The notes below the pieces were generated by a model. The model had not been told where the DNA came from and did no database searches. It worked only from the letters and a program-made list of their open reading frames with translations. A stretch of 32,000 nt of DNA. Origin: an uncultured archaeon. Its GTDB lineage: Archaea > Asgardarchaeota > Jordiarchaeia > Jordiarchaeales > Jordiarchaeaceae. The translations under genes were made by a program, and so were the position numbers. Positions 13,236 through 28,010 of the stretch are shown piece after piece; position 1 is the first letter of the stretch, and every line of letters begins with the position of its first letter. The stretch lies in assembly GCA_964510585.1 (NCBI GenBank), contig CAZECW010000018.1:1-32000 (forward strand), given 5' to 3'.

Positions 13236-14597
13236 CTAAAAATTTTCTGCGCCTACTTGGAATATTTGGTAAGCTCTGTAGGGTTCTCGGTCGGTTATCT
13301 CTCCACACAGGTTGGTGGTCATTTGTTCATATATTTCCTTCATATTTTTTGTGTGTCCTAATACGTAGATTAGTTTTACATAGGCGGTTTCGGGCAACAT
13401 GTTTTTGCAAGGAATAACTCCAATTTTAAGTAGGTCTCTTCCCCGTTCATACACGTTCATACCTACGAATCCAAAGAGGCACTGGGAAGTCATGGCTACA
13501 GGAATATCTTCCTCCACTGCCCTTTTTAAAGGTTCTATAATTGTTTTGGGACAGTGCCCCAAACCGGTTCCTGCTAAAACAATCCCATGATATTTTAAGT
13601 CTATGAGTTTATGAATAATATCTCCATCCATTCCGGGATAAGTGTATATCAGCGCCACTCTGGGGTCAAGTTGGGTGTCTAATTTAACTTCGCCTTTCTT
13701 AACTCTTTTCCTGTAATCATTTCTAATTATTTTTATTTCATTATCCTTCACCAAACCTATGGGAATATCTGCAATTGTACGAAAAGCATCCCGTCTGCTG
13801 GTGTGCATCTTTCTAACTCTGGTGCCTCTATGAATCAAGTTATAGTCGTCGCTGCTACTTCCATGCATACATACAACTACCTCAGCTATATCGCTAAACG
13901 CAGCCACTCTGGCCGCAGAGATTAAATTTATCGCCGCATCACTTGAGGGCCGGTCACTGCTCCTCTGGCTGCCAACTAGAACTACTGGAACTGGCAAATC
14001 ATTTAACATAAATGACAGGGCTGAAGAGGTGAAATGCATAGTATCAGTACCGTGGGGAATGATGACTCCGTCCGCACCTGAGTTTATCTCTTCAGCAACA
14101 GTTTCCGCGATTTTTATCCAGTTGTTCGGTGTCATATCTTCTGAAAATATTTCGAATAAGAGTTTTGTTTTCAGATTGCAGATTTCTGCAAGTTCGGGAA
14201 CCGCACTAAAAAGCTCTTGTGGAGTAAAAGCGGGAATAACAGCTCCGGTTCTGTAATCGAGTCTGCTCGCCACAGTTCCGCCAGTGCCAATCAGAGAGAC
14301 TTTGGGTTTCTTGGGATCAAACTCAACTTGTATTTCGGGAATGGCGTAAAGTCCTGGCTTGTAGCCTAATTCTTTAATTTTTGTGTCTTCTGTGACTCTC
14401 ACACCTATATTGTATCCAGTATCTAGTTTGAGGACTAGGTGCTTATCATCACCCATATCACTTCTTGGGAGTAGTATCCCTCGGTATGTTGCTTCGGGGG
14501 TAATTACTTCGATTTCGCTCCAAATTCTAACTTTAGCGGTCTCAAGTTTTTTCCTAACAAATCCCCAGTATCCTTGCAGCTCCTCCTTTACCGTCAT
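13236..14597 (-). CDS. gatD: Glu-tRNA(Gln) amidotransferase subunit D
   Basis: TGGTVASRLDYRTG, HGTDTM, GSQRSSDRPSSD and RKMHTSRRDAF motifs; ATG overlaps the gatE stop. Confidence 0.97.
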   Translation of the reverse strand: MTVKEELQGYWGFVRKKLETAKVRIWSEIEVITPEATYRGILLPRSDMGDDKHLVLKLDTGYNIGVRVTEDTKIKELGYKPGLYAIPEIQVEFDPKKPKVSLIGTGGTVASRLDYRTGAVIPAFTPQELFSAVPELAEICNLKTKLLFEIFSEDMTPNNWIKIAETVAEEINSGADGVIIPHGTDTMHFTSSALSFMLNDLPVPVVLVGSQRSSDRPSSDAAINLISAARVAAFSDIAEVVVCMHGSSSDDYNLIHRGTRVRKMHTSRRDAFRTIADIPIGLVKDNEIKIIRNDYRKRVKKGEVKLDTQLDPRVALIYTYPGMDGDIIHKLIDLKYHGIVLAGTGLGHCPKTIIEPLKRAVEEDIPVAMTSQCLFGFVGMNVYERGRDLLKIGVIPCKNMLPETAYVKLIYVLGHTKNMKEIYEQMTTNLCGEITDREPYRAYQIFQVGAENF

Positions 14598-16534
14598 TGT
14601 TTTCCCTCCAATATTTTTACTATTTTTTTACGGAGAACTTCAGCCACTACTTTTCCGTCAATTTTGCCTCTTACCTTTTCCATCACTTTGCCCATCATGG
14701 GACTAAACGCCCTATCCCCACTTTTTTCTATAAAGTCCCTGCTTTCATAGAGCATCTCGTCGATTATTTTTTCAAGTTTCTCAACTGTAATGGTTTCCAA
14801 CCCTAATTCTTTAAGGGCGTCACTGACACTAATTGAGGGGGATTTCGCTAGTTCTTGTAGAATGTTTTCCACTGCTTCTTTTGCTATTTTTCCTTCTGAT
14901 AGAAATTTGAAAACATCTTTAATTTTTTCTTCGGAGATATTGTCTGTTCGGAAGCCCTCCCTCTCCAGAGATTTCATGGTTTGAAGCAAGGTTACAACAA
15001 CAATTGTTGGATCTATTTTGTATTTCTCGACGATATCCATAAACAATTCCATTTTCCCTGACGCCATTAATTCTTCTACGAACTCTTCTTTTATCTTGTA
15101 CTTTTCAGCAAGGCGTTTCTGAGCCACCCAAGGATATTCAGGTAACCTCTTACTAATTGCTGCAACCCTTTCCTTTTCTATGACCAATGGGGGGGTATCT
15201 GTATCGGGATATAAACGCGCCCCGCCATGTAACTCTCTTAAAAATTCACTGTTACCATTTTCTAACGCTCTCCTAGTTTCCCTCATCACGCCCTTCAGGG
15301 CGCCCTTAGCCCTATCAACAACATTCTCCAAGGCCTTTTCCGCCGTGTCCGCATCACCTATAACGATTGCGTAAGCATCCATTTCCCCCAGTGCAAGAAG
15401 ATCACGTATCTGGGAGTTCTCCTCCGCACTGATGTTATATTTGCTGAGGTTTTCATCAGAGTGAATGATGCCTTTTAAACCAGTGATTATCATAACTTTC
15501 TCTGCTATTTCTTTTCCAAAACTCTTCCCTGGCTGAATCTCTTTAGATAAAAGTCCCGCGAATTTTGGAAGTTTTACCGCTAATACGGTTTCATTAGCCT
15601 TCCTATTTTTGATAATCTTACATTTGGTGGAGGCGAAAATCTGGGAAACATCTTTAAAATCTTTAGAGAAGTCCGTTTCCTTCACACCACGATTCAACAA
15701 CTGATTCTTAATATCAATTAGTGCAAGTTGTCTCAGTACTTCATTCTCAGCCAGTTTAGGTATCCAATCCAATTTTTGTACTCCTTTAATTTCCACACGC
15801 TCTCCGCCCTCTATACTCACATTTAAATCCTGCCTAATGGTTCCGAGCCCCCTCTTAACCTTCCCTGTCGCCCTGAGAAGCATTCCTATCCTGTAAGCTA
15901 CTTTGAGAAGCTCTTCTGGATTTTTAATTTCAGGCGCCGTAACAACTTCAACCAGAGGTATACCTAATCTATCAACCCTGTAATAAACAGTGCTTTGCTC
16001 CTCACGGATTTTCCTAGCCGCATCCTCCTCTATACAAATAGTAGCTACTCCAACCTTCCTACCATTAATTGGAATGTAGCCCTCTGTTCCAATAATTAAT
16101 GTACGCTGAAATCCACAAGGAACTGACCCGTCAAGATAATTTTTGCGAAGGACATGTAACTCGTCTATAATCTTTGCATTAAACAATAGGGCAATTTCTA
16201 TACCTATATCTATTGCTTCCTGAGATATGCTAAAAGGAGGAGTTTAATGCTTGTATGCGTCCTACATACAAGTTTCATCTATCTCGTAAGTACAATTAAC
16301 ATCATCAAATCCTTCATAAACAATTGTACGCCCCTTTTCATACTCAACAAGCATTGCTTCGTCATACTTACCCATCTCGCCCAAAACAGGTCTAAAGAAT
16401 CTTTTAACCAGAAACTGTGGTTCATCGGTCTTCAGAACAGGTTTACAGAAGCAAAAAAGTTTGCGACTGGTTAAAAGCTCCTGGTGAATCTCGATCCCGG
16501 CCTTGAATCCCAGTTTATCATAGTCGAGTTGTAT
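14594..16534 (-). CDS. gatE: Glu-tRNA(Gln) amidotransferase subunit E, interrupted by a 30-nt BHB-type intron (exons 16274-16534 and 14594-16243; 636 aa if spliced)
   Basis: GIEIHQEL, RKNYLDGS..GFQRT, DRLGIPLVE, GLGTIRQDLNVSI and RLYPDTD motifs; removing 16244-16273 gives CTYEIDE-TPPF; start probably ATA at 16534 behind GGAGGTG (alternatives ATG 16549, TTG 16564). Confidence 0.92.
16244..16273 (-). other. 30-nt BHB-type intron in gatE
   Basis: GAUG/CAUU 4-bp helix, AAA at both cut sites, 8-bp CUUGUAUG/CAUACAAG intron stem, in-frame TAG and TAA. Confidence 0.85.
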
Positions 16535-16722
16535 TGCGACCACCTCCATTTTTGGAGTTTTCAAATTATTAGTAGATTATAGCAATATTAATAATACCCT
16601 TTACCTCATAAGAATGTATCATTCTAAAAACATTTTCCTTAGAAAAATTCAAAGTATTTATAACTAATTTTGTAACTTAGTCAAATTAACACTCTAACTA
16701 TCAGCCAAGGTGATAAAAATTC

Positions 16723-26896: not shown

Positions 26897-27947
26897 TTAT
26901 TCCTCAGCTTCCTCGCTTCTGTCGTGTTTTTTCCACATAGGAGGGTAGGTTCCCGGCTCCATTAAGACACGGTTTATTTCCACTGCAACCCCGTGGTTTG
27001 AGGTGTACATTTCTTGACTGCTCATTTTTGCTATTCCCAATGCTACAGCTTCATTTTTAAGCGTGAAGATTGAAACTAGATCACCAGCTTTTATTTCGCT
27101 CTCTAGTTTAACTATTCCAGGAGCGGTTAGATTTGCACCGTGACAAAGAGAATCTACGGCAGAGTCTCGTATAAAAATTTTAGGTATATGCTCCAGTGCA
27201 TTTTCCATTGGTTGTATAATTTTTCTTAGGAATGATTCGTCTCCATCTTCCTTCCAGAAATGGTAAGCATCAACGAGGTCGTATAGGTTTGTTATAGTAT
27301 CTTCTTTGAAAGGCCCTGTTCGGGTGCGTCTGAGTTCTCTCATATGGGCGCCACAACCTAAAACCTCGCCGATGTCGTGGCAGAGCTTCCTTATGTAGGT
27401 GCCGGCCTCACAACCAACACGCAGGAGCCCATTTCTACCCTCTACTTCGTTTAGTTCAATATAGTATATTTCCCTAATCCTCACCCTCCTTTTAACCGAG
27501 GAGCGGAGCGGTGGACGCTGATAAATTTGTCCCGCAAACTCGTTTACAACTTCTCTCAATCTACTTTCAGACACATCCCCGTGCAGCCGAATTACACAAA
27601 CATACTCTTTCCCAGCCGGAAGGAGAGCTTGAACTACTTTAGTTGCAGATTCTAAAGCCACAGGAAGCACACCTGTGACTTTGGGATTTCACTGCCTCCT
27701 ATGCTTCTGAAGGAAGCTCTAGTGTCCCAGCGTGGCCTGCCTTCTTAACATTCAAGATTTTTTTGACCCAGCTAACCACTTCATGTGAAGTGGGACCCGG
27801 AGGCTTGTCAATATTGACTATCCCGTTTTTTATATAATCTTCTATTTGACGTTCGTTGGGTGGAGTTCCATACTCCGGATTAGTGACCACGTTAGCCTTC
27901 TGGAGCATCTCTCTTTTCTTGTCGCTGGGTAAAAAACGCTCGACCAT
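26897..27947 (-). CDS. cbf5: H/ACA pseudouridine synthase Cbf5, interrupted by a 31-nt BHB intron (exons 27719-27947 and 26897-27687; 339 aa if spliced)
   Basis: [11 protein letters not shown]; [15 protein letters not shown] restored by splicing; [16 protein letters not shown] and PUA domain. Confidence 0.95.
27688..27718 (-). other. 31-nt canonical BHB intron in cbf5
   Basis: GGGA/UCCC exon helix, CACU/AGUG central helix, AGA and AAA bulges, GCUUCCU/AGGAGGC intron stem. Confidence 0.93.
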
Positions 27948-28010
27948 TATCCATCCCCACTAAGTTTTTAAAATAAAAATAAAGATATTGGATTGACTTT
28001 ACCGCATATC

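What the first reader, a model, noticed from the sequence alone, without database searches (positions are those of the whole stretch)
16244..16273. BHB-type mRNA intron in gatE, a candidate new archaeal protein-gene intron
Seen: gatE is split into two ORFs in the same frame by ACT TGT ATG TAG GAC GCA TAC AAG CAT TAA. On the mRNA this folds as GAUG-AAA-CUUGUAUG-(UAGGACG)-CAUACAAG-CAUU-AAA, giving a 4-bp helix GAUG/CAUU, an AAA at each cut site and an 8-bp intron stem. An exon-exon helix GAGAUA/UAUCUC (16280-16285 with 16222-16227) closes behind an 18-nt loop. Cutting after the second base of each AAA, the known splicing-endonuclease rule, removes 30 nt and restores CTYEIDE-TPPF and a 636-aa GatE. 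Established: cbf5 is the characterised case of BHB splicing in an archaeal mRNA. Inference: this is a second target gene with a relaxed 3' site, and unspliced mRNA would yield only a peptide of about 90 aa.
Basis: partly seen in the sequence, partly recalled or inferred. Interest (0 to 1): 0.92.

Follow-up and report, generated by a model that had tools for sequence, protein, structure and literature searches.

The report
tRNA-type mini-intron in Asgard gatE
The essential gatE gene of this Asgard archaeon (class Jordiarchaeia) is interrupted by a conserved 30-base insert that has the structure cut by the tRNA-splicing enzyme, so gatE joins cbf5 as a second coding gene predicted to need this splicing, although no RNA data were available to show it happening.

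Summary
gatE lies on the minus strand (14594-16549) and is interrupted at 16244-16273 by 30 nt that carry in-frame UAG and UAA. The two halves abut in the GatE profile (positions 3-88 and 90-628).

The intron reading is strongly supported by comparison. No RNA data could be found.
- All 11 genomes of the order carry an insert at this exact site. Lengths are 29, 30, 31 and 35 nt, and three of them shift the frame.
- The architecture is always the same: a 4-bp helix, an AA|A bulge, a 6-11-bp stem, then AA|A.
- 97.7% of pair cells are paired, and 7 of 13 pairs show compensatory double changes.
- Both exons are under strong purifying selection (dN/dS 0.04-0.08).
- gatE is single-copy, gatD follows it, and no GlnRS was found.
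- The genome encodes an alpha/beta pair of splicing-endonuclease subunits and RtcB.

Two other Asgard lineages carry a BHB insert at the same site or 5 nt upstream. A GatE tree rejects a single clade of carriers.

The motif is the relaxed HBh' class. The mature protein is 641 aa, not 636.

cbf5, pcm, an AIRS-family gene and probably tyrS, rtcB and a POR alpha gene in this genome carry similar inserts. This scan noted the gatE intron before in another genome (e1-2590898). I found no published report.

The parts
16274..16549 (-). gatE exon 1 (92 codons from ATG 16549; ends ...CTYEIDE)
   Evidence: Matches NCBIfam GatE NF003107 positions 3-88, E 1.2e-23. dN/dS is 0.04-0.06 against congeneric species.
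16244..16273 (-). 30-nt BHB (HBh'-class) intron: A + CUUGUAUGU + AGGAC + GCAUACAAG + CAUU + AA
   Evidence: Sequence. An insert of 29-35 nt sits at the same site in all 11 genomes of the order. Covariation is shown.
14594..16243 (-). gatE exon 2 (549 codons plus stop; begins TPPFSISQEAID)
   Evidence: Matches NF003107 positions 90-628, E 1.8e-187. There is no start codon until a TTG 19 codons in.
16276..16279 (-). 5' strand of the central 4-bp helix (GAUG, exon 1 codons Asp-Glu)
   Evidence: Pairs with 16246-16249. GAUG/CAUU, GAUG/CAUC and GACG/CGUC occur in relatives, including a U-A to C-G double change.
16246..16249 (-). 3' strand of the central helix (CAUU, inside the intron)
   Evidence: 97.5% of cells are paired across 10 distinct sequences.
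16273..16275 (-). 5' bulge AAA; predicted cut after the second A (between 16274 and 16273)
   Evidence: Invariant AA|A in all 17 loci. The cut position follows the established EndA rule and was not tested.
16243..16245 (-). 3' splice-site AAA; predicted cut between 16244 and 16243; not closed by a conserved outer helix
   Evidence: AA|A in all Jordiarchaeia and AC|A in G111. The outer helix is not supported.
16250..16272 (-). Intron hairpin h': 9-bp stem (16264-16272 with 16250-16258) and 5-nt loop (16259-16263)
   Evidence: 97.8% of cells are paired, and 6 of 9 pairs show compensatory double changes.
13236..14597 (-). gatD, the partner subunit; overlaps the gatE stop by 4 nt
   Evidence: Matches NCBIfam GatD NF003217, E 5.2e-171.

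Best explanation
The 30 nt at 16244-16273 are an endonuclease-type (bulge-helix-bulge) intron in the gatE pre-mRNA.

In the transcript, the last codons of exon 1 (GAUG) pair with the intron's CAUU to form the 4-bp central helix. A 9-bp intron hairpin stacks on one side. An AAA bulge holds the 5' cut site, and an AAA directly after the central helix holds the 3' cut site. This is the relaxed HBh' form, because no conserved exon-exon helix closes the 3' site.

The organism's two-subunit (alpha-beta) splicing endonuclease is inferred to cut after the second base of each AAA. RtcB is inferred to join the exons and probably circularise the 30-nt intron. The spliced mRNA reads GAU GAA|ACU CCU and encodes a 641-aa GatE, which works with GatD from the next gene to make Gln-tRNA(Gln). 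Unspliced mRNA would give only a 95-aa fragment.

Shown here: the sequence, its conservation, the covariation, selection on both exons, and the presence of the enzyme genes. Inferred: cleavage, ligation and the exact cut positions.
For: (1) The two ORFs abut in the GatE profile (3-88 and 90-628).

(2) All 6 genomes of the genus and all 5 of the sister family carry an insert at the identical site. Lengths are 30, 29, 30, 30, 31 and 35 nt. Three shift the frame, so the insert cannot be translated through.

(3) The architecture is invariant while the sequence changes. The central helix is 4/4 paired in 16 of 17 loci, and the stem is 6-14 bp. On 10 distinct sequences, 97.7% of cells are paired. 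Seven of 13 pairs change on both sides. No shuffle out of 500 reached these values, and slid registers gave 11-53%. One covarying pair links a synonymous third codon position of exon 1 (GAU/GAC) to an intron base.

(4) dN/dS is 0.04-0.08 for both exons at saturated synonymous divergence. The intron differs at only 6-7 of 30 positions.

(5) gatE is single-copy. gatD lies directly downstream. No GlnRS scored above cut-off.

(6) There are two EndA paralogues. One has the Tyr/His/Lys triad, and its best solved relative is the Aeropyrum pernix chain 3p1z_B (E 2.8e-45), aligned without gaps through GQPLGIRKPKSPQF. The other has Thr at the position aligned to the His of the M. jannaschii enzyme in the 1a79 alignment. 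RtcB is present. [quoted passage not shown]

(7) cbf5 in the same window carries a canonical hBHBh' 31-nt intron, and its pieces are contiguous in the profile (2-66 and 68-322).

(8) Independent DNA contigs all hold the insert.
Against: No RNA evidence was obtained: no spliced junction reads, no circular intron and no cleavage assay.

The 3' site is not a closed 3-nt bulge. The only candidate outer helix is 75% paired with no compensatory change.

The thermodynamic MFE of the 81-nt region is not the BHB conformer (-16.8 against -15.1 kcal/mol when the BHB is enforced). Its z-score against shuffles is only -1.63.

In G000 the central helix is weak, with two A-U pairs, one G-U and one G-C.

A genome-wide scan for BHB geometry that joins ORFs found no excess over a mirror-handed control. 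Geometry alone is therefore not diagnostic.
Confidence: 0.85

Rival explanations
1. The gene is split or decaying. The insert is a disruptive insertion, and the cell makes two polypeptides or none, with GatE function lost or supplied otherwise.
For: There are two in-frame stops. Gene callers would report two ORFs. No RNA evidence of splicing exists.
Against: The insert is kept at the same site in all 11 genomes of the order, with compensatory stem changes. Both exons have dN/dS of 0.04-0.08 and no further stops or frameshifts. Exon 2 has no start codon until a TTG 19 codons in, which would remove the conserved TPPF motif. There is no second gatE and no GlnRS.
Confidence: 0.03
2. Translational bypass or recoding. 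Ribosomes hop over or read through the 30 nt, as in phage T4 gene 60, and no RNA is cut.
For: A hairpin with a stop codon lies close to a possible take-off site. AAACU is repeated at both junctions in G000.
Against: Matched take-off and landing codons are not conserved: ACG/ACC, ACG/ACA and AUG/ACG occur in the sister family. What is conserved is pairing between exon 1 and the 3' end of the insert, with a fixed 4-bp/3-nt geometry. Bypassing does not require this, and EndA does.
Confidence: 0.02
3. The element is cut by EndA, or removed by another RNase and ligase pair, mainly as a control device. Cleavage may often lead to decay rather than productive splicing, or the cuts may lie at positions other than those predicted.
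For: Eukaryotic TSEN cleaves some mRNAs for decay without ligation (PMC10485636). The relaxed 3' site leaves the exact cut uncertain, and repeated A residues allow alternative registers that give the same product.
Against: A functional GatE appears indispensable and can arise only by precise in-frame joining. Insert lengths in relatives always restore the frame when cut by the cut-after-two rule.
Confidence: 0.08

Closest known systems
cbf5 pre-mRNA intron of Crenarchaeota (Aeropyrum, Sulfolobales, Desulfurococcales; Watanabe 2002, Yoshinari 2006, Yokobori 2009 = PMC2738675)
   Same: A short intron inside a protein-coding gene. It has a BHB motif that is often relaxed, a host with a hetero-oligomeric splicing endonuclease, patchy gain and loss among relatives, and a host gene that works in RNA and translation biology.
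   Different: The host gene (gatE) and the phylum (Asgard, class Jordiarchaeia) differ. Splicing of cbf5 was shown experimentally, whereas here it is inferred. This genome also has its own cbf5 intron (27688-27718), plus further interrupted protein genes.
Non-canonical BHB introns of Asgard tRNA genes (Valentin-Alvarado 2024, PMC11291895; bioRxiv 10.64898/2026.10.13.758758)
   Same: The same lineages (Freyrarchaeaceae, Jordiarchaeaceae, Atabeyarchaeia), the same size range and motif classes including HBh', the same presumed enzymes, and repeated gains at the same positions.
   Different: Those introns are in tRNA genes. Neither paper mentions gatE, cbf5 or any mRNA intron.
Haloferax volcanii HVO_1309 mRNA BHB (Schwarz 2020, PMC7714728; reviewed in PMC10485636)
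   Same: An archaeal mRNA processed at a BHB by the splicing endonuclease.
   Different: By my recollection, which I did not check here, that BHB lies in the 5' untranslated region. The enzyme there is an alpha2 type, and no coding frame has to be restored.
HAC1/XBP1 unconventional mRNA splicing (IRE1 cleavage plus tRNA ligase or RtcB)
   Same: Protein-only cleavage at stem-loop sites in an mRNA followed by tRNA-ligase-type joining. The splice changes the reading frame and product.
   Different: The nuclease (IRE1) and the structure differ, and the process is regulatory and stress-induced. This is an analogy only, cited from general knowledge.

Membership tests
Archaeal EndA-dependent (BHB) intron | 4-bp central helix with correct handedness (5' strand: exon-helix-bulge-intron helix; 3' strand: intron helix-helix-bulge-exon) | tested here: met
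   GAUG/CAUU lies in the right register. It is 4/4 paired in 16 of 17 loci and 97.5% of cells are paired, with one pair changed on both sides.
Archaeal EndA-dependent (BHB) intron | 3-nt bulge at the 5' splice site, flanked by the central helix and an intron helix (h') | tested here: met
   AA|A is invariant. The h' helix is 6-14 bp, and 6 of its 9 pairs covary.
Archaeal EndA-dependent (BHB) intron | 3-nt bulge at the 3' splice site closed by an exon-exon helix (h), as needed for the canonical hBHBh' class | tested here: not met
No conserved helix follows the AAA. The motif therefore belongs to the accepted relaxed class HBh', not the canonical class.
Archaeal EndA-dependent (BHB) intron | Excision by the cut-after-second-bulge-base rule restores a functional product | tested here: met
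   It restores ...YEIDE-TPPF... and profile continuity in G000. It also restores the frame in every relative, whether the insert is 29, 30, 31, 35 or 51 nt.
Archaeal EndA-dependent (BHB) intron | Host encodes a splicing endonuclease able to cut relaxed motifs, and an RtcB ligase | tested here: met
   A catalytic alpha-like and a His-less beta-like EndA paralogue are present, and so is RtcB. Activity and substrate range were not measured.
Archaeal EndA-dependent (BHB) intron | Spliced RNA and excised (circular) intron observed; cleavage by EndA in vitro | not testable with these tools
   No RNA holder was listed. The two runs labelled metatranscriptomic behave as DNA contigs.
GatE (Glu-tRNA(Gln) amidotransferase subunit E) | Full-length match to the equivalog models above cut-off | tested here: met
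   Exon 2 alone scores 624.6 bits against a cut-off of 456 on NF003107, and exon 1 supplies profile positions 3-88.

The most novel reading that the evidence does not exclude
gatE is one of a set of EndA/RtcB-dependent introns in essential protein genes of the tRNA-intron-rich Asgard classes (Jordiarchaeia, Atabeyarchaeia). In this genome the set includes cbf5, pcm and an AIRS-family gene, and probably rtcB, tyrS and a POR alpha gene. On this reading, protein-only mRNA splicing is a routine layer of gene expression in close relatives of eukaryotes. The same 5-nt hot spot in gatE was hit or kept in at least three separate lineages. Supply of GatE, and with it Gln-tRNA, is coupled to the cell's splicing capacity, and the ligase mRNA itself needs the same reaction.
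Probability: 0.3. Interest if true: 0.88.

Novelty: new member of a known kind. Interest (0 to 1): 0.72.

Why it matters
For more than twenty years cbf5 has been the textbook example, and almost the only one, of an archaeal protein gene spliced by the tRNA-splicing machinery. A 2023 review counts two archaeal mRNAs in all and expects more (PMC10485636).

A conserved, covarying intron in an indispensable translation gene of Asgard archaea widens that picture. So do similar inserts in several other genes of the same genome. Together they suggest that mRNAs in these relatives of eukaryotes must be spliced before they can be translated. That raises the question of how splicing is kept ahead of ribosomes in a cell without a nucleus.

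There is also a practical consequence. Standard gene callers will report gatE in these lineages as truncated or split, which would distort annotation of these genomes.

Tried and rejected
RNA evidence:
- No RNA holder was listed for the window in either run search.
- The two runs labelled METATRANSCRIPTOMIC gave long multi-gene contigs that carry the unspliced form. They behave as DNA, so they say nothing about splicing.
The wetland metatranscriptomes that go with the complete Freyarchaeum genome could not be tried.

Structure prediction alone:
- The MFE fold of 81 nt is not the BHB conformer, and its z-score is -1.63. The enforced BHB fold is 1.7 kcal/mol less stable. I did not count this as support.

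- It is present in G000, but it is 75% paired across relatives with no compensatory change. Its sequence lies in constrained codons. Rejected as a supported feature.
- A proximal GAG/CUC helix is also not conserved.

Genome-wide scan for BHB geometry that joins two ORFs:
- Counts were 1261 real against 1298 mirror-handed hits at a 5-bp stem, and 330 against 339 after tightening.
- The scan recovers gatE, cbf5, pcm, tyrS and others, but it is not specific. I could not estimate the number of mRNA introns from it.

Other checks:
- ARAGORN and Rfam found nothing in the window.
- Translational bypass was rejected because take-off and landing codons do not match in relatives.
- Assembly artefact was rejected.
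- A second gatE copy was rejected; the only other hit is gatB.
- The aconitase-family candidate on C181 could not be confirmed. Its N piece was too short for a Pfam hit, and the C piece's best stretch starts at profile position 88.

Full report
**What is in the sequence.** gatE lies on the minus strand of the window. Translating 14594-16564 in one frame gives a GatE-like protein broken by two stops ten codons apart...CTYEIDE TCM* DAYKH* TPPFSISQEAID.... The 92-aa N piece (16274-16549) matches the GatE equivalog NF003107 at profile positions 3-88. The 549-aa C piece (14594-16243) matches positions 90-628. The two pieces therefore abut, and deleting 30 nt gives a continuous 641-aa GatE.

**Geometry.** On the mRNA the region reads GAGAUA-GAUG-AAA-CUUGUAUGU-AGGAC-GCAUACAAG-CAUU-AAA-CUCCUC. 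From established knowledge of pre-tRNA substrates, the 5' strand of a BHB runs outer helix, 4-bp helix, 3-nt bulge, intron helix. The 3' strand runs intron helix, 4-bp helix, 3-nt bulge, outer helix. Each cut falls after the second bulge base. The gatE element fits this handedness and these distances exactly, and the cuts remove 30 nt in frame. In this genome, the same geometry with 9 or more stem pairs occurs at 6.2e-6 per position and length. The minimum-energy fold is a different conformer, though. The BHB fold is 1.7 kcal/mol less stable, and the z-score of the region is unremarkable. A single sequence would therefore not be convincing.

**Organism.** Near-identical gatE loci come from hot-spring MAGs named Candidatus Freyarchaeota or Jordarchaeia, and from the complete Freyarchaeia chromosome CP147778. 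These Asgard archaea belong to the GTDB class Jordiarchaeia. This class and Atabeyarchaeia are already known for very intron-rich tRNA genes: 92-95% of tRNA genes are interrupted (PMC11291895; bioRxiv 10.64898/2026.10.13.758758). Neither paper mentions gatE, cbf5 or mRNA introns.

**Comparative evidence, the main result.**
- In 41 related genomes, the reading frame downstream of the site is about 550 aa in the genus and its sister family, and about 640-690 aa in most others.
- All six genomes of the genus carry 30 nt at the same site. The five genomes of the sister family carry 30, 29, 31, 35 and 30 nt, so three of them shift the frame.
- The architecture never changes: GAYG, AA|A, a 6-11-bp stem, a short loop, CRYY, AA|A. 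The stem sequence does change: CUUGUAUG, CUUGCA, CGUACAUG and UGCGCACGCG.
- On ten distinct sequences, 97.7% of pair cells are standard pairs. Seven of 13 pairs changed on both sides. No shuffle out of 500 reached these values, and sliding the 3' partners by 1-3 columns dropped pairing to 11-53%.
- One covarying pair joins the synonymous third position of the Asp codon in exon 1 (GAU or GAC) to an intron base (A or G).

**The gene is alive and needed.**
- Against congeneric species whose synonymous sites are saturated (pS about 0.65-0.70), dN/dS is 0.04-0.06 for exon 1 and 0.05-0.08 for exon 2.
- The intron differs at only 6-7 of 30 positions, and the stem changes among these are compensatory.
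- The genome has one gatE; the only other hit is gatB.
- gatD follows with a 4-nt overlap.
- The only GlnRS-like match is far below the model's cut-off and is presumably GluRS.
- Exon 2 has no start codon until a TTG 19 codons in.
- Contigs from four public runs of three studies carry the 30 nt without gaps.

**Machinery.**
- Two EndA paralogues of 192 and 198 aa are present.
- The first keeps the Tyr, His and Lys of the catalytic triad. Its best solved relative is the Aeropyrum pernix heterotetramer chain 3p1z_B (E 2.8e-45), with a gap-free alignment through GQPLGIRKPKSPQF.
- From memory of the A. pernix work, this stretch corresponds to the Crenarchaea-specific loop linked to broad specificity (title of PMC3241643). 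I did not verify residue numbering.
- The second paralogue has Thr where the M. jannaschii enzyme has the His in the 1a79 alignment. It looks like a structural beta subunit.
- By PMC5829648, only (alpha-beta)2 and epsilon2 enzymes cut non-canonical introns.
- RtcB is present.
- Yokobori et al. note that cbf5 introns often use the relaxed motif, and they tie this to hetero-oligomeric enzymes.

**The 3' site.** The proposed distal helix (16280-16285 with 16222-16227) is only 75% paired across relatives. Every change in it breaks pairing, and none compensates. Both strands lie in constrained codons. The motif is best classed as HBh'.

**Other lineages.**
- I surveyed 400 Asgard genomes and followed up 25.
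- Family f13 has three genomes, two of them complete at 2.8 Mb. These sizes match the published Atabeyarchaeia genomes, but that identification is an inference.
- f13 carries inserts of 41, 41 and 35 nt that lie 5 nt upstream of the Jordiarchaeia site. Two have a 4/4 central helix AGGC/GCCU, and the third has 3/4.
- One genome of family f22 (G111) carries 51 nt at exactly the Jordiarchaeia site: GAUG, AA|A, a stem that begins CAGAAUAGC/GCUAUUCUG, CAUC, AC|A.
- On a GatE tree, a clade of the two Jordiarchaeia families is not rejected (p-AU 0.40).
- Adding f22 is rejected (p 1.5e-4), and uniting all carriers is rejected (p 2.6e-32).
- This is a single-gene tree, G111 sits on a long branch, and the groups were defined by the feature itself. 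With those limits, the pattern points to repeated gain or retention at one hot spot. The 2026 preprint reports the same pattern for tRNA introns.

**Context in this genome.**
- cbf5 in the same window has a canonical hBHBh' intron of 31 nt at 27688-27718: GGGA-CACU-AG|A-GCUUCCU...AGGAGGC-AGUG-AA|A-UCCC. It splits the Asp codon of GHAGTLD, and its pieces are contiguous in the Cbf5 profile (2-66 and 68-322).
- My scan also recovered inserts with BHB geometry in pcm (PCMT profile 3-59 and 61-208) and in an AIRS-family gene (profile 1-48 and 51-111).
- It recovered inserts in tyrS and a POR alpha gene too. There the C piece starts at profile position 18 or 17, and the N piece is too short to score.
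- rtcB has a 30-nt insert with an in-frame TGA and a CCCG/CGGG helix.
- The scan itself showed no excess over a mirror-handed control, so these cases rest on homology and not on the scan statistics.
- Earlier notes of this project list the same and further cases, including a gatE intron in another genome. I treated them as leads and tested those named above.

**Literature.** Full-text searches found no report of a gatE intron or of coding-region BHB introns in Asgard archaea. A 2023 review counts cbf5 and HVO_1309 as the archaeal mRNAs spliced by the endonuclease.

**Verdict.** The kind is known, but the host gene and the lineage are new. What is missing is any RNA-level evidence.

Noticed in passing
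window 27688-27718 (minus strand); cbf5 exons 27720-27959 and 26900-27685: cbf5 carries a canonical hBHBh' intron of 31 nt (GGGA-CACU-AG|A-stem-AGUG-AA|A-UCCC) that splits the Asp codon of GHAGTLD. The two pieces are contiguous in the Cbf5 profile (2-66 and 68-322).
   Followed up: yes
G000 C58:3762-3791 (L042:1561-1590): rtcB, the ligase expected to join spliced exons, has a 30-nt insert with an in-frame TGA between TLPD and AHQGYGFPIG. It has a CCCG/CGGG central helix and AC|A and AA|G bulges, but its intron helix is weak. If real, the ligase mRNA needs the ligase.
   Followed up: partly
G000 C187:67020-67051 (pcm); C193:53626-53655 (AIRS-family gene); C4:22120-22149 (tyrS); C72:43796-43828 minus strand (POR alpha): Four more protein genes carry 30-33-nt inserts with BHB geometry. 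Pfam profiles are contiguous across the gap for pcm and the AIRS-family gene. For tyrS and POR alpha the C piece starts at profile position 17-18, which is consistent with an intron.
   Followed up: partly
ARAGORN and Rfam at gathering threshold report no tRNA anywhere in the window, as expected if tRNA genes are heavily interrupted. I did not check the tRNA itself.
   Followed up: no
L028, L032, L055 (family f13, probably Atabeyarchaeia); L043/L054 (G111, family f22): gatE carries BHB inserts of 41, 41 and 35 nt that lie 5 nt upstream of the Jordiarchaeia site, and one of 51 nt at exactly that site. On the GatE tree these lineages do not group with Jordiarchaeia.
   Followed up: partly
Asgard families f23 and f28 (for example G116, G149, G152, G155, G160): These genomes have two full-length gatE paralogues each, in some cases a few kb apart. 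They are uninterrupted over the N-terminal 189 residues that were searched.
   Followed up: no
window 16243-16275 and the homologous junctions in relatives: Both junctions of the gatE intron share AAAC(U), which looks like a short direct repeat flanking the insert. This may only reflect the pseudo-symmetry of the BHB, or it may hint at how the intron arrived.
   Followed up: no
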